IMG/VR virus record: IMGVR_UViG_3300037483_000275
Span: 1 to 57,372 of that record
Length of the DNA: 57,372 nt
Direction: 5' to 3' (one strand)
Source of the DNA: a virus
Lineage: Duplodnaviria; Caudoviricetes
Part shown: in pieces, positions 32,727-38,813 of the stretch
How the letters are laid out: every line of letters starts with the position of its first letter
How positions within the stretch are numbered: position 1 is the stretch's first letter
Position numbers and translations under genes: made by a program
Notes under the pieces: model-generated
Seen by the model: only the letters and a program-made list of their open reading frames with translations
The model's database searches: none
What the model was told of the DNA's origin: nothing

Positions 32727-33228
32727 TTCACAACGGGGCCTCTACCTCTGGTTGATGATCATTCTGTTCGGTGGGGCGGGACTGTTCGCGGTCGTGATGA
32801 CTGTGGTCATGCTCAAGACGCGCCGTGCCTTCCGGCTGGAGATCGACAAGGTGGACGCGCTACTGCGGGCCAAGAAGGAGGCCAACCAGTGATCCCTCCA
32901 ATGACTGCCCCACCGCCACCGCCGTCTACCGATGATTCAGCGTGGATTGATCCTGGCGTTGGTATTTGGCACCCGGTCGCGGCAATCGACTACGTCATCG
33001 CCTTTGGCATCGGTTACGCACTCGGCGCCGTCATCCTCTATGTGGCAGAGCTAGTCCGATGATCCTCCAACTGTTCGTCCTGGGGTTGATCCTCCACGTG
33101 TTGTTAGGCGGGTTGGCGGCGATGGTTCGGGGTATCCGGTGAAAACCCGTGACCCATGGGCCTATGCTCTCGTGGTATTCCTAGCAGTCATCGTGCTGGG
33201 CGTGGGACGGACCGCGGGGGTGTGGTGA
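32719..33228 (+). CDS. Chain of four tiny single-TM ORFs (32719-32892, 32889-33062, 33059-33142, 33139-33228)
   Basis: Translated by hand; each has a hydrophobic helix and is coupled to the next by GTGA/ATGA overlaps; below the ORF-track size cutoff. Confidence 0.6.
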
Positions 33229-33617
33229 GCGCCACGGCAAGTATCGAGCACGGGGTTAGAGCGTACCGCAAAGGCTGTCGGTGTGCAGAGTGTCGCGCGG
33301 GTCAAAGGGAGTATGTACAGGAACGGCGCAAACGGAATCCCGAGAAATTTGCACAGTACAACAAGAACAAGAAGCGCAACCCCGAGAAGGCTGCTCAGTG
33401 GAACAAGGAATGGCGTAAACGAAACCCGGATAAGGTACGGGCCTCAGCAGCGAAAGCACGAAAGCAGTGGAACAAGACACACCCGGAAGAGGCGGCACGT
33501 CGGTACGCCGCGTACCTGCAAAGGCGCGAGGACCGAGGCCAGCAACAGGCGGAGCATAGGCCATACCGCGATCGGATTAGCGATGCTCTCCGCGACTGGC
33601 CAGGAGACGACGAGTGA
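33225..33617 (+). CDS. Basic Zn-binding protein (HG..AY..GCRC..C motif)
   Basis: HGVRAYRKGCRCAECR followed by RNPEK repeats. Confidence 0.55.
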   Translation: MSATASIEHGVRAYRKGCRCAECRAGQREYVQERRKRNPEKFAQYNKNKKRNPEKAAQWNKEWRKRNPDKVRASAAKARKQWNKTHPEEAARRYAAYLQRREDRGQQQAEHRPYRDRISDALRDWPGDDE

Positions 33618-33796
33618 GCCACGTCAGCGACAATGACCCCACGCAATCGGAGCCCTGGTATGACGACGACGAGCCCGAGACGTACCAGTGCATCATCTGC
33701 GGGGAACAGGTCGAGGTCTTCGAGTTAGCGGAGAAGGACCCCCCGATTTGCGAGAACTGCAGCGACAGGGACGACCGATGGGAGGACTCGGAATAA
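33614..33796 (+). CDS. Small acidic Zn-ribbon protein
   Basis: CIIC...CENC. Confidence 0.5.
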   Translation: MSHVSDNDPTQSEPWYDDDEPETYQCIICGEQVEVFELAEKDPPICENCSDRDDRWEDSE

Positions 33797-33856
33797 AAGT
33801 ACCGGGCCAGCGGCTCCCGGTGCAAAGCCGCTACCAACGCATAAGGAATGATTCAC

Positions 33857-34645
33857 ATGGCAAAGGCAAAGGTCACGACGACAGAGGTTGAAGCCACCAT
33901 CCTTGAGGTCAAGCGGGAACGCCTGACGGTGTACGTCGTCGGGGAAACTCCGCTGATCCCGCACGCGATGGCGGCCAAGGCCAAGGAAGAATTACTGCTC
34001 CCCGGCCGACCGAAGAATCGAGCCGAGAAACTGTCCACCGCCAAGCACGATCCGATCGCGGAGTATCGGGACTGCTTCGACCGGGCACGGAAGCCCGAGG
34101 CGGCAACGGCGATTCTCGCGAAGGCGACATGGTTCAAGGGGGCCATGATGACGGCAGCCCTCGACCAGCCGGGCGTGTTCAAGTCCACCATCGGGCGGCT
34201 GTGCTGGGTCCACGGAGACTACAGCTCCGACATGATCCACCTGTACGGGATTCCTCAACTCAAGATGGACGTGGTGCGACAGGCTGGGCAGAACAAAGCA
34301 CCTGACATTCGGAGCCGTCCCTGCCTCGCCCGCTGGTGCTGCCAGATCACGGTGGGCTACAGCGTGCCGCTGATCGCGGAGCGCGACGTGGTGAATCTCC
34401 TGGCGGCGGGTGGGATTACTAGCGGCGTCGGTGACTGGCGGGTCCAGAAGGGTTCGGGGAGCTTCGGCCAGTACCGGCTTGCCACGGCGAATGATCCCGA
34501 AGTGAAAGAGATCATGCGGACGGGCGGGACGGCGACACAGCTCAAAGCCATCGAAGCGCCCGAGTACTACAACGAGGAAACCGCAGACCTGATGGAATGG
34601 TACCTCGAAGCCAGCGCCGCTCGCGGCCTGAGAAAGGTGTCCTGA
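33857..34645 (+). CDS. Solo RAMP/Cas7-like RRM protein, candidate RNA-guided effector
   Basis: LTVYVVGETPLIPH (beta1 plus TPL), ILAKATWFKGAMM (xPxxxxKG-like helix), C-terminal Gly-loop GITSGVGDWRVQKGSGSFGQY; AAGGA RBS. Confidence 0.75.
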   Translation: MAKAKVTTTEVEATILEVKRERLTVYVVGETPLIPHAMAAKAKEELLLPGRPKNRAEKLSTAKHDPIAEYRDCFDRARKPEAATAILAKATWFKGAMMTAALDQPGVFKSTIGRLCWVHGDYSSDMIHLYGIPQLKMDVVRQAGQNKAPDIRSRPCLARWCCQITVGYSVPLIAERDVVNLLAAGGITSGVGDWRVQKGSGSFGQYRLATANDPEVKEIMRTGGTATQLKAIEAPEYYNEETADLMEWYLEASAARGLRKVS

Positions 34646-34649
34646 TCCG

Positions 34650-35123
34650 ATGGAAGCCAGTAAGAAGGAACTGGTCCGGGTGCGGCTGGACGCCCTGGCC
34701 GAGAAGCACGACGGGCTGCTGACCCCCGAGATGGTGGTCGCGGATGCCAAGAACCCCAAGAGCCCGCTGCACGAGCACTTCGTGTGGGACACAAAGAAGG
34801 CCGCCGCCCAGCACTGGCTAGACACAGCCCGCATGCTGATTCGCAGTGTCCGGGTGGTGGTGGTGACCGAGCACAGCGTGTTGTCCTCGGTGGCTTATGT
34901 CCGGGACTCCAGTCTGCCGGGAGACCAGCAGGGCTATCGCTCCCTGGCCTCAATCAAGAGTGACCGGGACCGGGCGCGGGAGACGGTGATGGCGGAGTTC
35001 CTGCGGGCCGAAGGCGTGATGCGGCGGGCGCGGGAGATCGCGGAAGTACTCGACCTGAGCGAGGACGTGGACGAGATCATCGAGAAGATCGACACGACTC
35101 GACAGAAGGCGCAGACGGCATAA
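34650..35123 (+). CDS. Partner protein between the RAMP-like gene and the array
   Basis: LTPEMVVADAKNPKSPLHEHFVWD...ARMLIRSV; 4 nt after the RAMP-like stop. Confidence 0.7.
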   Translation: MEASKKELVRVRLDALAEKHDGLLTPEMVVADAKNPKSPLHEHFVWDTKKAAAQHWLDTARMLIRSVRVVVVTEHSVLSSVAYVRDSSLPGDQQGYRSLASIKSDRDRARETVMAEFLRAEGVMRRAREIAEVLDLSEDVDEIIEKIDTTRQKAQTA

Positions 35124-35132
35124 AGAAAAAAA

Positions 35133-35235
35133 GGGGGGTATAGGATCGCCCTCGGGTAAGGCTGTGATGAATTACTTGCGTCCTCGCAGTCTGGTTGGTT
35201 CCAACGCAAGGGAACTGCCCGGTTCTATACTCCTC
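35133..35235 (+). ncRNA. Structured leader RNA upstream of the array
   Basis: 13-bp closing stem (35133-45/35223-35), inner stem, two hairpins with complementary loops (CTTGCGT/ACGCAAG). Confidence 0.55.
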
Positions 35236-35253
35236 CCATTTCCCCATTTGCTG

Positions 35254-35688
35254 GGTTGATGCGGATAGGTCGGGACGGGTGTGGCAAGGTTTGTTCGGGT
35301 GCGGACTGGTAAGGCGGGGCGGGGAAAGGCCGTAGAGGTTAGGCGCGGGATGGACTGGTCAGGCAAGTCATGGTTAGGTGGGGTACGGAAGGGCTGATGA
35401 GGCGAGGCGCGGTTTGTTCGGGAACGGATGGGATGGGAAAGGTTGGGATAGGCAAGGACTGGCTGATGCGGACGGGGCAAGGACTGGCCGATGCGGACGG
35501 GGTAAGGACTGGCGCGTTTTGGATAGCCCAGGCGTGGTACGGAACGGTGCGGCTGAAGCGGTGAGGCGCGGATCGGATGGGCCAGGTACGGCGAGCTGAG
35601 GATTGGCTGATGCGGCAGAGGTAACGTTTGGACTGGTGAGGATGGGCTTGGAGAGGTCGGGACAGGCGCGGTTAGGAAAGGCCGATGT
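35254..35688 (+). repeat. Non-coding GG-H-NN pentamer array with 9-nt delimiters (candidate guide-RNA array)
   Basis: Delimiters at 35254, 35328, 35392, 35461, 35486, 35551, 35605, 35680 separate runs of 13, 11, 12, 3, 11, 9 and 13 GG-led units. Confidence 0.9.
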
Positions 35689-35705
35689 GGACGAGGGGGG
35701 TACGC

Positions 35706-35915
35706 ATGACACTCAACGACCGACTCATGAATTGGCTGGATAAGCAGACGGCGTATGCGTACTCCATCCTTGCCTACACCCTAAAGGGCGACTGGCACGT
35801 CGAAATCCACTACAGATCCGGTGCGCGAATCGACACCCAAGCCGCGACCCTGCGGCAAGCGGTCCTCGAAGCACGGCTGGAACGGGAGCGGAGCCGGAAG
35901 GTGGAGGCGGCGTGA
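35706..35915 (+). CDS. Hypothetical protein
   Basis: GAGGGGGG RBS at the end of the array; coupled to the next ORF. Confidence 0.55.
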   Translation: MTLNDRLMNWLDKQTAYAYSILAYTLKGDWHVEIHYRSGARIDTQAATLRQAVLEARLERERSRKVEAA

Positions 35916-36535
35916 GAGACTGGGGCGACGACGACGAGTATCTGGACCCCCTGGCCCGCGCTCGGCGCCAGACTGTCCGATGGCAACGCGCGTTTCTCGC
36001 TCTGGTGGTGATCTCGATCCTGACGCTGGTGTTGGTGGGCGCCTTGCTCCGGATGCTGGCCAGGCCGGAGGTCACGCCATGACCTGGCGACTTGACGCGG
36101 AGCTGGCGGCGATGGACGGCCGGATTGAACGGTCGGACCAGTGTCGCGGGGCGGAGCTGACCTACCGGATCGACTACCGGCATCTGGCGAAAGTGCTGCA
36201 AGTGCGGCCGGCGTATCTCGCGACCAAGCCCCGGCTCAAGTACGTCATTCCCGGATTGCGGATTGTCCGGGCGCCCAAGAAAGACGTGGAGGGTGTGCTA
36301 CCACTGAGGCGGGAGACGGCCTGATGCGCTGCGACAACTGGCATCGGAAGACGGTATGAAGCTGAGACGGATGTTTGCCTTCGTATCTCTGAATTGTCTG
36401 GCGCTCGCCGCCTTTATCGGAGCTGCCGCTCTGGGCGTGTCCTTCACGGTCAACATTCTCGTCATTATGGGTTTGTGCATGCCGGTGCTCTGGAATCTCA
36501 TATCGGATTGGCAGCAGGGTGAAAAACTATGGTGA
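35912..36535 (+). CDS. Small ORFs: TM protein 35912-36082, hypothetical 36079-36324, TM protein 36356-36535
   Basis: Hand translation; overlapping start/stop codons; hydrophobic helices. Confidence 0.5.
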
Positions 36536-36752
36536 GCGAAAGTGGCGGAACGGGCGAGACGATCAATCAAGATTGCCGGGGAGAGCGTCTAGCGAACCAT
36601 GCTCGGACGGGGCCAGTGGCCGTCACGCTCCCTTGCCGGTGGCGAATCGGGACTCCGGCACGTTCTGACGCCTAGCAGTAAGTGAGCCCGCTTACAGGGC
36701 GGGCTCGGGACCAGCAGGACCAACAGGCACAGGAAAGGTAGGGAATTACCGC

Positions 36753-37352
36753 ATGACTCACAAGCCCGATACCGCCGTTGCCACTGATAGCGGCAAGTCC
36801 TTCGATCCCCACCCCGAGGGTCAGTTCTCGGCTCAGTGCGTGGACTGCATCAACCTGGGTGAGAAGGTCGAGGAATACGCTGGCCAGTCCAAGAGCCTCC
36901 GGGCGAAAGTGGCCCTGGTGTTCCGGACAGGGGAAGCGCGGGAGGACGGCGAGCTGTACGAAATCAGCAAGGAATTTACTCTGAGCACCAACGAAAAGGG
37001 GAACCTGCGGAAGTTCCTGACATCATGGCGGGGGCGGAGCTTCACCGACCAGGAAGCGGAGCGGTTCGAGGTACATACCCTGGTCGGTGTTGCCGCCCTC
37101 ATCACCGTCGAACACAAGAAATCGCGGAACGATCGGAAGTACGGGAACATCGTGAGCATCACGCGGCTTCCGAAGGGGCTGGAACCGCCGGACGTCGGAG
37201 AATACGAGCGGCCGGAGTTCTGGGCTTCGCGGAAGAAAGAGTACGCGGACGAGGCGGCGAAGTTCCGGGCGGAGACGCAAGCCCCGCAAGGTGAACCGCT
37301 AAACGATTTCCCGGAAGCATTGGACGAGGGCGACGATGATCTCCCCTTCTGA
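36753..37352 (+). CDS. Phage ssDNA-binding protein-like (OB fold)
   Basis: PEGQF...LRKFLTSWRG...YGNIVSI and acidic DDDLPF C-terminal tail. Confidence 0.7.
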   Translation: MTHKPDTAVATDSGKSFDPHPEGQFSAQCVDCINLGEKVEEYAGQSKSLRAKVALVFRTGEAREDGELYEISKEFTLSTNEKGNLRKFLTSWRGRSFTDQEAERFEVHTLVGVAALITVEHKKSRNDRKYGNIVSITRLPKGLEPPDVGEYERPEFWASRKKEYADEAAKFRAETQAPQGEPLNDFPEALDEGDDDLPF

Positions 37353-38115
37353 AGTGGTTCACGCCTCCGAGTCTGGCCATTGGTACTGGCCCACGGGTCT
37401 CCCCGCGTACGCAGTCGAGGGAGCCAAGGGGGAAATGCGGCCCACCACGCTCCGGGATGCCCGGAAGCTCGGGCTCTTGCCCTCGGTGACCACGATCATC
37501 CGGACGGCCGCGTCTCCTGGTCTGGAGATTTGGAAGCAGAAACAGGTCTTGCTGGCGGCGCTGACCCTGCCCCGGTTGGATGGGGAGACAGACGACGCGC
37601 TCATTACCCGGATTCTGGACGACTCGAAACAACAAGTCCGGCAGGCGGCGGACATCGGGACCCAGATCCACGCCGCGGTGCAGGCGCATTACTCCGACGA
37701 GCCGATGACCCAGTACCCGGACATCGTGGACGCGGTGCGGCACGAACTGAAAGCGCACTACGGGGACTTGGCCTGGCCGCTGGATGCGGAACGATGTTTT
37801 GCCCACCCGCTGGGATACGGCGGCAAGGCGGATCTGCACAACCCGATGTTGGTCCTCGATGTGAAAACCAAGGACTTCGCGGATGCCCGGGAGTTGAGGG
37901 TCTACGACGAACAGGTCATGCAGCTTGCGGCCTACCGGGTAGGACTGGGGTTTCCCTACGCGCGGTGCGCGAATGTATTCGTGAGCACAACGAAACCCGG
38001 GTTGGTGTGGGTGGCGGAGCATCGGGGCGACGAGCTGGCGAAGGGCTGGGAGATGTTCGTGGCCCTGCTCCATTTCTGGCAAAATAAGACAAACCACCGG
38101 CCGAAGGCTGCATGA
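37336..38115 (+). CDS. PD-(D/E)XK exonuclease (Cas4-like/RecB family)
   Basis: LPSVTTII, GTQIH, YGGKADL...LDVKT, QLAAY. Confidence 0.85.
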   Translation: MISPSEVVHASESGHWYWPTGLPAYAVEGAKGEMRPTTLRDARKLGLLPSVTTIIRTAASPGLEIWKQKQVLLAALTLPRLDGETDDALITRILDDSKQQVRQAADIGTQIHAAVQAHYSDEPMTQYPDIVDAVRHELKAHYGDLAWPLDAERCFAHPLGYGGKADLHNPMLVLDVKTKDFADARELRVYDEQVMQLAAYRVGLGFPYARCANVFVSTTKPGLVWVAEHRGDELAKGWEMFVALLHFWQNKTNHRPKAA

Positions 38116-38399
38116 AAATCGGATCGGTTTCGATTCCTGATCCTGATGGCGAGGAATACCACGACCTGGCAGCATGGTACAGTGGGTTTGCCTACGCCGA
38201 GCACTACCGGCACGTCGTGTTGTCAGCGATCCGCGAAATGCTGCGCGCTGGGAATGCTATCGGGGGAAAGAAAATGACCGAGGCCAGACTAGAAGACGCC
38301 TCGCGCTCGCATCCACTGTACCTGGAATTTCTGGAGAAACACTTGCGGGGACGCATTCGATGGGAGCACGCGTTTCTGAGCCAAGGAGGAATGCGATGA
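38112..38399 (+). CDS. Hypothetical protein
   Basis: Coupled ORF after the exonuclease. Confidence 0.5.
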   Translation: MKIGSVSIPDPDGEEYHDLAAWYSGFAYAEHYRHVVLSAIREMLRAGNAIGGKKMTEARLEDASRSHPLYLEFLEKHLRGRIRWEHAFLSQGGMR

Positions 38400-38813
38400 C
38401 ATCGGTAGCCGAGCAGCAACTGTCGCTCCGGATCACCCGTCTCCTAGCGGACGTGCGGACACCGGTCCAGCGGTGGCGGGTCACGGCGAACGGGATGTAT
38501 CACGGCAGCTTCCCCGGCGCGAAGGCCACGACGGAAGCCGAAGCCCGAGCCTATGCGAAGTCGTTGTATCCCCAGCGATGGAATGACCAAACGTGGAATG
38601 TGGAGGCAGTGCGCTAGTGTCCTACTCGCATGATCCCCATGAGCGTGCTGTTGAGATCTCCGATAGATGGGATCGGTGGCATTCAAGGGGTTACTCTTTT
38701 AATCCAGAGAACGCCTACGTTGAACTTGCGCGGGCATATTTGGAACTTGAAGTCAGGTTTGGATTCGTCCAAAAGGAGCTAGACGTACTTAAGACCCGCT
38801 GGGAGGCTATCCG

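What the first reader, a model, noticed from the sequence alone, without database searches (positions are those of the whole stretch)
35254..35688. Array grammar: constant GG, variable trinucleotide, and 9-nt delimiters defining six guide-sized units
Seen: unit 1 (35263-35327) reads GGATA GGTCG GGACG GGTGT GGCAA GGTTT GTTCG GGTGC GGACT GGTAA GGCGG GGCGG GGAAA. The other units keep the same phase. Delimiters are GGTTGATGC, GGCCGTAGA, GGCTGATGA, GGCTGATGC, GGCCGATGC, GGCTGAAGC, GGCTGATGC and GGCCGATGT. Position 3 is almost never G and positions 4-5 vary freely. Every full unit has one non-GG pentamer (GT, GC or CG; two in the 35495 unit). Each unit has a distinct variable string, so information is interleaved with scaffold instead of stored as a contiguous spacer. 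The variable triplets of unit 1 concatenate to ATATCGACGTGTCAATTTTCG..., which contains TGTCAA (reverse of a -35 box); this may be chance.
Basis: partly seen in the sequence, partly recalled or inferred. Interest (0 to 1): 0.88.

Follow-up and report, generated by a model that had tools for sequence, protein, structure and literature searches.

The report
Phage VIPR guide-RNA array
The five-letter GG repeat tract is the guide-RNA array of a VIPR system, a CRISPR-like, phage-borne RNA-guided DNA-binding system first described in 2026 preprints, so it is a real but already known kind of element.

Summary
Window 35254-35688 is a G-rich, non-coding tract with GG every 5 nt. Eight copies of a 9-nt delimiter cut it into six full units of 9-13 pentamers plus one 16-nt remnant.

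It lies directly after two genes. The first (33848-34645) folds as a Cas7/Csm3-like RAMP. Its family profile hits the tested Vipr protein of Escherichia phage SUSP1, including the residues that hold the two G's. The second (34650-35123) is a small, possibly winged-helix partner.

Of 142 related loci, 117 carry a same-strand GG-pentamer array within 2.5 kb of the RAMP gene. These include cultured Mycobacterium and Gordonia phages.

This matches VIPR (bioRxiv 10.64898/2026.04.26.720920 and .720927): Vipr protein, vap gene, and vrRNAs of GGY/NN pentamers whose NN letters spell a DNA target with one skipped base.

Three things differ from the SUSP1 type. Position 3 is often A, there is a 9-nt delimiter instead of a ~40-nt structured tail, and the partner gene is unrelated to vap1.

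I found no target in 1.4 Mb of local DNA, and no RNA data exist. This scan has noted VIPR on other DNA many times (532 notes). Verdict: new member of a known kind.

The parts
33848..34645 (+). vipr gene: Cas7/Csm3-like RAMP protein, 265 aa (262 aa if translation starts at the ATG at 33857)
   Evidence: AlphaFold2 on a 34-row alignment gave pLDDT 88.1 and pTM 0.83, with a long beta-hairpin (residues 129-173, the thumb) and a glycine-rich loop. Foldseek pdb top hits are all Csm3 or type VII Cas7, E 1.7e-5 and up. VIA-align wide gave Z 9.1-7, and the top 16 rows are all CRISPR RAMP subunits. The family profile hits SUSP1 Vipr.
34650..35123 (+). partner gene (vap-like accessory protein), 157 aa
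   Evidence: It starts 4 nt after the vipr stop. An A2-profile homologue lies just downstream of vipr in 119 of 142 loci. The AF2 model has pLDDT 89.1: an N-terminal helix/strand domain plus a long C-terminal helical hairpin. The forkhead/winged-helix Foldseek matches are weak (E 0.07-0.1). It matches phrog_15946, unknown function. No similarity to SUSP1 vap1 (hhalign probability 0.13%).
35124..35253 (+). leader between the partner gene and the array, with a multibranch hairpin at about 35133-35235
   Evidence: RNA fold -53.5 kcal/mol, z -2.5, 2 of 200 shuffles as good. No sigma-70-like promoter or intrinsic terminator was found in 34600-36200. Its role is unknown.
35254..35688 (+). vrRNA array: 8 delimiters bounding 6 full units and 1 remnant, about 85 pentamer steps
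   Evidence: No Rfam match.
35254..35262 (+). delimiter 1 (GGTTGATGC)
35263..35327 (+). unit 1, 13 pentamers
35328..35336 (+). delimiter 2 (GGCCGTAGA), with a -1 phase slip
35337..35391 (+). unit 2, 11 pentamers
35392..35400 (+). delimiter 3 (GGCTGATGA), with a -1 phase slip (the chain parse places the 4-nt step at 35387)
35401..35460 (+). unit 3, 12 pentamers
35461..35469 (+). delimiter 4 (GGCTGATGC)
35470..35485 (+). unit 4, a 16-nt remnant that is part of a 25-nt tandem duplication (35451-35513)
35486..35494 (+). delimiter 5 (GGCCGATGC)
35495..35550 (+). unit 5, one 6-nt step plus 10 pentamers
   Evidence: Weak in-frame match to rival vipr genes.
35551..35559 (+). delimiter 6 (GGCTGAAGC), with a -1 phase slip
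35560..35604 (+). unit 6, 9 pentamers
35605..35613 (+). delimiter 7 (GGCTGATGC)
35614..35679 (+). unit 7, one 6-nt step plus 12 pentamers
35680..35688 (+). delimiter 8 (GGCCGATGT), the end of the array; the next ORF starts at 35706

Best explanation
This is a complete VIPR (Viral Interference Programmable Repeat) locus in an uncultivated phage: the vipr gene (33848-34645), an accessory vap-like gene (34650-35123) and a + strand array of six to seven vrRNA units (35254-35688).

The mechanism below is inferred by homology with the SUSP1 system; none of it was shown here. The array is transcribed and cut at or near the 9-nt delimiters. One Vipr protomer binds each pentamer. The thumb and the glycine-rich loop lock G1, G2 and position 3 away from pairing. 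The exposed dinucleotides at positions 4-5 of 9-13 successive repeats pair with double-stranded DNA, skipping every third target base. The bound filament then silences transcription of the target, most likely a gene of a competing phage, prophage or satellite.

What was shown here: the grammar, the RAMP fold, the conserved GG-contact residues, and the conserved three-part synteny.
For: 1. Grammar. GG has a 5-nt period far above shuffles and is unique in the window. Positions 4-5 are near maximal entropy and position 3 is almost never G. Units hold 9-13 repeats, inside the published 9-16 range.

2. Protein fold. The 265-aa protein models with confidence (pLDDT 88.1). It matches Csm3/Cas7 RAMPs by Foldseek (E 1.7e-5) and by VIA-align (Z 9.1, rmsd 3.9, 154 residues aligned; 6 rows at Z 8.0-9.0 follow, all CRISPR RAMP subunits).

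3. Homology to the tested Vipr.
- The family profile finds one place in the phiSUSP1 genome (E 2.2e-7).
- That place is the 195-aa gene flanked by ~450- and ~530-nt intergenic regions, as the paper describes.
- hhalign gives 94.5% probability over 52 columns.
- The PDB sequence copy returns only '36pp_D SUSP1 Vipr protein', E 1.9e-5.
- In that alignment SUSP1 R138, D177, W178 and R179, the contacts for G1, G2 and Y3, align with R157, D196, W197 and R198 here.
- R157 and R198 are invariant and D196 is at least 90% conserved in 34 homologues. The scan pattern was G[VI]GD[WF]R.

4. Synteny.
- Of 142 loci with a homologue, 117 have a same-strand array within 2.5 kb, and 98 of the 113 loci with enough flank do. 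The 142 are 83 IMG/VR, 9 metagenome, 48 genome-contig and 2 cultured-phage loci; some are near-duplicates.
- By the same threshold, opposite-strand tracts occur in 17 loci (all 100-203 nt) and distant same-strand tracts in 4.
- The near arrays have a median length of 272 nt.
- Family-wide, position 3 is C 58%, T 27%, A 12%, G 3%, and positions 4-5 carry 1.97 and 1.99 bits.
- 4-nt steps recur mostly every 9-13 repeats.

5. The partner gene follows vipr in 119 of 142 loci.

6. The window is an IMG/VR virus record, and VIPR is described as mainly phage-borne.
Against: - There is no RNA evidence for this locus, so transcription, processing at the delimiters and binding to the protein are all inferred.
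- No DNA target was found for any of the six units under the 1-nt skip rule (or 0, 2 or 3) in 0.75 Mb and then 1.42 Mb of local DNA. The best scores were 71-78% of NN positions, and 14 to 60 of 60 shuffles scored as well.
- 340 units from related arrays also showed no excess over shuffles.
- The sequence link to SUSP1 Vipr covers only about 50 residues. The protein is 70 residues longer than SUSP1 Vipr.
- Position 3 is A in 24 of 62 GG pentamers, whereas the SUSP1 pocket is said to exclude purines.
- There is no room for a ~40-nt structured tail.
- The partner is not vap1, and its DNA-binding fold is not significant.
Confidence: 0.9

Rival explanations
1. The array is mainly a decoy or counter-weapon. 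Its units are not aimed at foreign genes for silencing by the phage's own Vipr. Instead they load onto rival phages' Vipr proteins, or target rival vipr genes, as described for solo vrRNAs of satellites and VIPR-null phages.
For: The abstract and outline of bioRxiv 10.64898/2026.10.15.759431 report solo vrRNAs that redirect or target rivals' VIPR. Unit 5, read by the 1-nt skip rule, has its best in-frame match (17 of 22) in the vipr genes of L006, L007, L009 and L011 just after the G-loop.
Against: The locus has its own vipr and partner genes directly upstream, so it is not a solo array. The unit 5 match is weak: 72 of 5000 shuffles do as well, before correcting for 12-24 tests. The other five units show nothing.
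Confidence: 0.06
2. A DNA-level element, such as a G-quadruplex or R-loop-forming origin, or a set of protein-binding iterons, that merely sits in the early or replication region.
For: There is strong G/C strand asymmetry (G 47.6%, C 15.4%). The tract lies upstream of recombination-type genes (an exonuclease phrog_298 match at 37336-38115). A short motif recurs 8 times.
Against: A strict 5.0-nt period does not fit the DNA helical repeat. Position 3 avoids G, which works against G-runs. The tract travels with the RAMP gene, on the same strand, across phages with different gene orders and a G+C content of 45-70%.
Confidence: 0.02
3. A neutral microsatellite-like tract made by slippage of one pentamer, or a degenerate CRISPR array.
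For: There is local duplication (25-nt period, 2.5 copies). Large internal duplications are visible in relatives such as L024.
Against: 15 of 16 dinucleotides occur at positions 4-5 with near-maximal entropy, which is not what slippage of one unit gives. The tract is conserved next to vipr in 117 of 142 loci. The 9-nt delimiters are far shorter than CRISPR repeats. The only Cas-like protein found is the Cas7-like Vipr itself, by fold: Pfam and PHROGs scans of ten ORFs in 33156-38617 named no Cas family.
Confidence: 0.02

Closest known systems
VIPR type II system of Escherichia phage SUSP1 (Vipr + vap1 + vrRNAs). Read from bioRxiv 10.64898/2026.04.26.720920: Results, Discussion and Methods sections 18, 20, 26, 27. 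Read from 10.64898/2026.04.26.720927: abstract and sections 5-6.
   Same: - A phage-borne two-gene locus.
- A RAMP protein with thumb and G-loop, with the GDWR G-loop motif and the thumb arginine conserved.
- Same-strand arrays of GG-anchored pentamers with hypervariable positions 4-5, 9-16 repeats per unit.
   Different: - The protein is 265 aa, against 195 aa.
- Sequence similarity is detectable only over about 50 residues.
- The partner is unrelated to vap1.
- Position 3 is A/C/T rather than C/T.
- Units are separated by a 9-nt delimiter, whereas each SUSP1 vrRNA ends in a ~40-nt structured tail.
VIPR 'staggered vrRNA arrays' (same preprint, fig. S18). Only the legend could be read; figures are not held and supplements are closed.
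   Same: Contiguous units with no long tail. Four of the seven spacings between delimiters are 5k-1 nt (74, 64, 69, 54). Family-wide, 4-nt steps recur mostly every 9-13 repeats. This fits neighbouring vrRNAs that overlap by 1 nt.
   Different: Three spacings here are exact multiples of 5 (25, 65, 75). The delimiter also carries a conserved non-GG pentamer (GATGC-like) that the legend does not mention. Whether the published staggered type is this clade cannot be told without the figure or tables.
Class 1 CRISPR Cas7 backbone on crRNA (types I, III, VII; Csm3/Cmr4)
   Same: The same fold family by two structure searches. In both, the protein polymerises along an RNA and a thumb periodically breaks the guide-target duplex (mechanism from the preprints).
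   Different: There is no CRISPR array, no Cas6, Cas5, Cas10 or Cas3, and no adaptation genes. The period is 5 nt with sequence-specific GG recognition, rather than 6 nt without sequence specificity. The guide is non-contiguous.

Membership tests
VIPR system (general) | Vipr protein: a minimal RAMP with an RRM core, a glycine-rich loop and a thumb hairpin | tested here: met
   AF2 model with pLDDT 88.1, hairpin at residues 129-173 and a glycine-rich stretch at 188-207. Foldseek to Csm3/Cas7, E 1.7e-5. VIA-align Z 9.1-7 to Cas7-family chains.
VIPR system (general) | Sequence homology to an experimentally characterised Vipr | tested here: met
   The A1 profile against the phiSUSP1 genome gave one hit, E 2.2e-7, in ALH47069.1. 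hhalign gave 94.5% probability and E 7.6e-8 over 52 columns. The PDB sequence search returned '36pp_D SUSP1 Vipr protein', E 1.9e-5. The match covers only the thumb-end to G-loop region.
VIPR system (general) | Conservation of the residues that hold G1, G2 and position 3 (SUSP1 R138, D177, W178, R179) | tested here: met
   They align with R157, D196, W197 and R198 (residue roles). R157 and R198 are invariant and D196 is at least 90% conserved in 34 homologues. W or F is allowed at 197 in the pattern used for the scan. H17 could not be aligned.
VIPR system (general) | Tandem GGY/NN (YNNGG) pentamers next to vipr, at least 4 repeats, typically 9-16 per vrRNA | tested here: met
   62 of 72 in-unit pentamers start with GG. 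Units hold 13, 11, 12, 11, 9 and 13 repeats, plus a 3-repeat remnant. Position 3 is A in 24 of 62, so the motif here is GGH. The preprint's Methods allow NNNGG variants.
VIPR system (general) | Hypervariable NN against a conserved scaffold | tested here: met
   Positions 4 and 5 carry 1.99 and 1.93 bits here, and 1.97 and 1.99 bits across the arrays of the 117 array-bearing loci. Position 3 carries 1.49 bits family-wide.
VIPR system (general) | Minimal locus of vipr plus a vap gene, with no CRISPR array and no further cas genes, mostly in viruses | tested here: met
   The ORF map and the Pfam and PHROGs scans of ten ORFs in 33156-38617 named no Cas family. The window is an IMG/VR virus record. 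The partner follows vipr in 119 of 142 loci.
VIPR system (general) | vrRNAs are expressed, processed and co-purify with Vipr | not testable with these tools
   No RNA run was listed for this DNA. The laid runs were DNA contigs only.
VIPR system (general) | NN strings match a natural DNA target under the 1-nt skip rule (at least 80% of NN positions) | tested here: inconclusive
   The best matches were 71-78% in 1.42 Mb of local DNA, no better than shuffles. A collection-scale search was not run (see Tried and rejected).
VIPR type II (SUSP1 / P. fulva clade) | Each vrRNA ends in an invariable, structured 3' tail of about 40 nt | tested here: not met
   Only 9 nt lie between units. The SUSP1 tails are visible and described.
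VIPR type II (SUSP1 / P. fulva clade) | vap1 accessory gene | tested here: not met
   hhalign of the partner profile against SUSP1 ALH47068.1 gave probability 0.13%.
CRISPR-Cas | Direct repeats of about 23-50 nt alternating with contiguous spacers, plus cas genes for processing, adaptation and interference | tested here: not met
   Delimiters are 9 nt and the 'spacers' are themselves pentamer repeats. Pfam and PHROGs named no Cas family among ten ORFs in 33156-38617. The repeat-length range is recalled, not from a call.

The most novel reading that the evidence does not exclude
This clade may be a distinct VIPR architecture. It comprises at least 501 IMG/VR matches, plus cluster-F-like Mycobacterium phages and Gordonia phages. 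In it, short delimiters (9 nt here; a 4-nt step in relatives) play the part of CRISPR repeats and bound each guide on both sides. The position-3 pocket has relaxed to accept A. At least one guide (unit 5) may be aimed at the vipr gene of rival phages.

If so, processing and filament capping would work differently from the tailed SUSP1 type. The system could also be studied in a cultivable actinobacterial host.
Probability: 0.3. Interest if true: 0.5.

Novelty: new member of a known kind. Interest (0 to 1): 0.3.

Why it matters
The kind of system is already in print, so this locus does not open a new question. It does add three things:
- It extends VIPR to a large, diverse clade. At least 501 matches were seen in IMG/VR, and the clade has prophage-like copies in many bacterial phyla.
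- It links VIPR to cultured Mycobacterium and Gordonia phages, where the biology could be tested by ordinary phage genetics.
- It shows a compact, delimiter-bounded array with a relaxed third scaffold position. That bears on how the RNAs are cut and how strictly the protein reads the scaffold.

It also shows that a reader working from raw sequence alone can recover the interleaved-code idea.

Tried and rejected
- **Rfam.** A scan of 34500-36500 at E up to 1 found nothing.
- **DNA similarity to phage records.** Nothing matched for the array or for 25-45 kb of the window.
- **Promoter and terminator scan.** None found in 34600-36200.
- **Early ideas dropped once the RAMP fold and the preprints were found.** These were a TRAP-like or CsrA-like RNA sponge, G-quadruplex or R-loop origin, iterons, Chi-like sites, and coding sequence. 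None explains the synteny with vipr.
- **Partner protein.** Foldseek gave no hit at E 0.001 or better (the best were forkhead domains at E 0.07-0.1). VIA-align matched only the generic C-terminal helical hairpin (Z about 8). A Cas11-like identity is therefore not shown.
- **Target search by script on local DNA only.**
  - Six units, skips 0-3, 0.75 Mb, 30 shuffles each: only the trivial self-match at skip 3.
  - Six units, with and without the delimiter pentamer, skip 1, 1.42 Mb with arrays masked, 60 shuffles: the best was 71-78%, and 14 to 60 of 60 shuffles reached the observed score.
  - 340 distinct units from related arrays, skips 0-2: no excess over shuffles. For example, at skip 1, 17 real units and 17 shuffled units reached 85% or more.
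- **Codon-wise reading of the units**. Best matches among session proteins fall in Vipr motifs, but that protein set is almost entirely Vipr and partner homologues, so this is expected. Only unit 5 (sense) stood out: 0 of 40 shuffles, then 72 of 5000. That is not significant after 12-24 tests.
- **Sequencing runs.** No RNA holder was listed. Laying 4 DNA runs showed only the probable source sample covering the array, and no variants in it.
- **Collection-scale gapped search.** A search of IMG/VR, metagenomes and genomes for the units' targets was not run.
- **Supplements and figures** of the VIPR preprints could not be seen. Their tables may already list this clade, its type and the actinophage members.

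Full report
**What is there.** The window is an IMG/VR virus record of 57,372 bp, 61.6% G+C, with most long ORFs on the + strand. Between the stop of a 157-aa ORF (35123) and the start of the next ORF (35706) lies a 582-nt gap. Its last 435 nt (35254-35688) are 47.6% G and 15.4% C.

GG recurs every 5 nt. The lag-5 autocorrelation of GG is 61, against 21.7 +/- 4.6 (largest 38) in 1000 shuffles. No other part of the window, on either strand, comes close. Fourier power is 3.42 at period 5 and 0.59 at period 3, while the two upstream genes show 9-10 at period 3. The tract is therefore not coding.

They bound units of 65, 55, 60, 16, 56, 45 and 66 nt. Allowing one mismatch, the delimiter consensus occurs 7 times in these 435 nt. 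The window-wide chance rate predicts about 0.4.

Inside the units, 62 of 72 pentamers begin with GG. Position 3 is A 24, T 21, C 16, G 1. Positions 4 and 5 carry 1.99 and 1.93 bits.

A best-chain parse places -1 phase slips at or beside three internal delimiters. The other delimiters keep phase only because they are followed by a 6-nt step. The 16-nt unit belongs to a 25-nt tandem duplication.

**The neighbours.** Pfam gave nothing useful for the two upstream genes. PHROGs placed them in two families of unknown function.

The 265-aa protein has more than 225 homologues in the large protein collection, all unnamed. Folded on a 34-row alignment it gives a confident model (pLDDT 88.1) with a long beta-hairpin and a glycine-rich loop. 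Foldseek against the PDB returns only Csm3 and type VII Cas7 chains at the top (E 1.7e-5 and up). An independent all-against-representatives alignment gives Z 9.1-7, and its top 16 rows are all CRISPR RAMP subunits.

The 157-aa partner models well (pLDDT 89.1) as a small helix/strand domain plus a long helical hairpin. Its matches are weak: forkhead/winged-helix at E 0.07-0.1, and a generic hairpin at Z about 8.

**Conservation.** Homologues of the RAMP gene at about 40% identity in three IMG/VR contigs all had a G-rich 5-periodic tract beside them. One of these is a 48% G+C phage in which the tract lies between the two genes.

An alignment-based scan found at least 501 relatives in IMG/VR, of which 80 were kept. 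Further scans found 9 in metagenomes and 48 in bacterial genome contigs from many phyla. A translated search found 32 cultured-phage records: 27 Mycobacterium and 5 Gordonia.

I examined 142 loci in total. These were 83 IMG/VR, 9 metagenome, 48 genome-contig and 2 cultured-phage loci. Some are near-duplicates, so they are not all independent.
- 117 have a same-strand array within 2.5 kb of the gene, and 98 of the 113 with enough flank do.
- The array lies downstream in 97 loci, on both sides in 15, and upstream only in 5.
- By the same threshold, short tracts (100-203 nt) occur on the opposite strand in 17 loci, and far from the gene in 4.
- The partner follows the RAMP gene in 119 loci.

The 15 loci with enough flank but no array by my threshold include L004, L094 and L095. 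Those show a recurring longer delimiter with weaker GG.

Family-wide, position 3 is C 58%, T 27%, A 12%, G 3%, and positions 4-5 carry 1.97 and 1.99 bits. 4-nt steps, mostly GGCA or GGCG, make up 869 of 9,467 steps. They recur mostly every 9-13 repeats, and 64% of 687 intervals fall within 9-16.

In Mycobacterium phage Quico the array fills the 400-nt gap before QUICO_57. In Gordonia phage Pipp it lies under annotated CDS 43.

**What is known.** A full-text search for 'pentanucleotide', 'bacteriophage' and 'Cas7' returned bioRxiv 10.64898/2026.04.26.720920. I read its abstract, Results, Discussion and Methods sections 18, 20, 26 and 27, plus passages with the supplementary figure legends.

It describes VIPR systems as follows:
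- The locus holds a minimal RAMP (Vipr), an accessory vap gene, and vrRNAs.
- Each vrRNA has 9-16 YNNGG repeats. GGY is conserved and NN is hypervariable.
- The NN letters specify a double-stranded DNA target, with one skipped base per repeat.
- Natural targets are competing phages, satellites and prophage regulators.
- Seven types are named. Their array architectures include staggered overlapping arrays, and their repeat variants include NNNGG.

The companion structure paper (abstract and sections 5-6) shows one protomer per repeat. It names the residues that hold G1, G2 and Y3.

A third preprint (abstract and outline only) reports solo vrRNAs aimed at rivals' vipr genes. A fourth (passages only) recovers 99 VIPR-like clusters from period-5 entropy patterns.

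**Membership.** The family profile finds one place in the phiSUSP1 genome (E 2.2e-7). That place is the 195-aa gene with long intergenic regions on both sides, matching the published locus.

hhalign gives 94.5% probability over 52 columns. The PDB sequence copy returns a single chain, named SUSP1 Vipr protein (E 1.9e-5).

In that alignment the SUSP1 residues R138, D177, W178 and R179 fall on R157, D196, W197 and R198 here. These are invariant or nearly invariant in the family.

The SUSP1 arrays read show the same pentamer grammar, but each is followed by a long structured tail.

The locus here therefore meets the general VIPR features I could test. It fails two features of the SUSP1-type (type II): the tail, and vap1. 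I cannot name its type, because the figures and tables are not available.

The 5k-1 spacings (74, 64, 69 and 54 nt here) and the family-wide 4-nt steps fit the legend of the 'staggered' arrays with 1-nt overlap. This is an inference from a legend only.

**Mechanism.** The following were shown here: the grammar, the fold, the conserved contact residues and the synteny.

The following are inferred from the SUSP1 work:
- The tract is transcribed on the + strand and cut at or near the delimiters.
- One protomer binds each pentamer.
- Positions 4-5 of 9-13 repeats read a DNA target with every third base skipped.
- Binding silences transcription of a rival element.

The frequent A at position 3 suggests a more permissive pocket than in SUSP1, where purines are said to be excluded.

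**Targets.** Using scripts only, I searched the units against the window and all fetched loci under skips 0-3, with shuffled controls. I also searched 340 related units under skips 0-2. Nothing exceeded the shuffles.

Earlier notes of this scan suggested reading guides codon-wise. I did that. Unit 5 matches 17 of 22 positions, in frame, just after the G-loop of the vipr genes of four related loci. However, 72 of 5000 shuffles do as well, so it is a hint only.

The local database is 1.4 Mb and contains no phage closer than 66% identity in Vipr. The negative result is therefore inconclusive.

**Expression.** No RNA run was listed, and only the probable source sample covers the array.

**Verdict.** The element is a new member of a known, very recently described kind. 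This scan has already noted VIPR on other DNA many times: 532 notes in at least 402 genomes. Interest is modest.

Noticed in passing
L086 (Mycobacterium phage Quico) 3118-4582; L087 (Gordonia phage Pipp) 3471-4771: Cultured actinophages carry the same three-part module. In Quico the array fills the gap before QUICO_57, and QUICO_58 is the partner. In Pipp the array lies under annotated CDS 43, which is probably not a real gene. The word 'mycobacteri' does not occur in the main text of the discovery preprint; its tables could not be seen.
   Followed up: partly
L093 5246-7424: A 2.2-kb GGC-pentamer array, by far the longest seen (median 272 nt), next to a 44%-identical vipr homologue in a metagenome contig.
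   Followed up: no
L004 5360-5800 (same contig as L095); L094: These loci fall below my GG threshold but show a recurring ~12-nt delimiter every 60-70 nt with weaker GG anchoring. This may be one of the degenerate repeat variants.
   Followed up: no
window 35124-35253: The leader between the partner gene and the array folds into a multibranch hairpin (-53.5 kcal/mol, z -2.5, 2 of 200 shuffles as good). Its role (promoter region, processing or stability element) is unknown.
   Followed up: partly
window, whole: The 9-mer GGCYGATGC with up to one mismatch occurs 87 times in the window, against 48.7 +/- 6.8 in dinucleotide shuffles. Most copies are on the + strand, and 80 of them lie outside the array. 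This may simply reflect codon usage, which shuffles do not keep.
   Followed up: no
window 35451-35513; L024 5249-5784: Arrays grow by duplication. There is a 25-nt tandem duplication here (2.5 copies, 94% matches), and a block of about 30 pentamers is repeated within L024.
   Followed up: no
15 of 142 related loci (e.g. L020, L030, L047, L059): These have arrays on both sides of the vipr gene, as in SUSP1 (one vrRNA upstream, three downstream).
   Followed up: no
window 36753-38115: Downstream genes include a phrog_862 protein of unknown function and a PD-(D/E)XK-type exonuclease match (phrog_298, E 6.4e-12). The VIPR locus therefore sits at the start of a recombination/early region.
   Followed up: no
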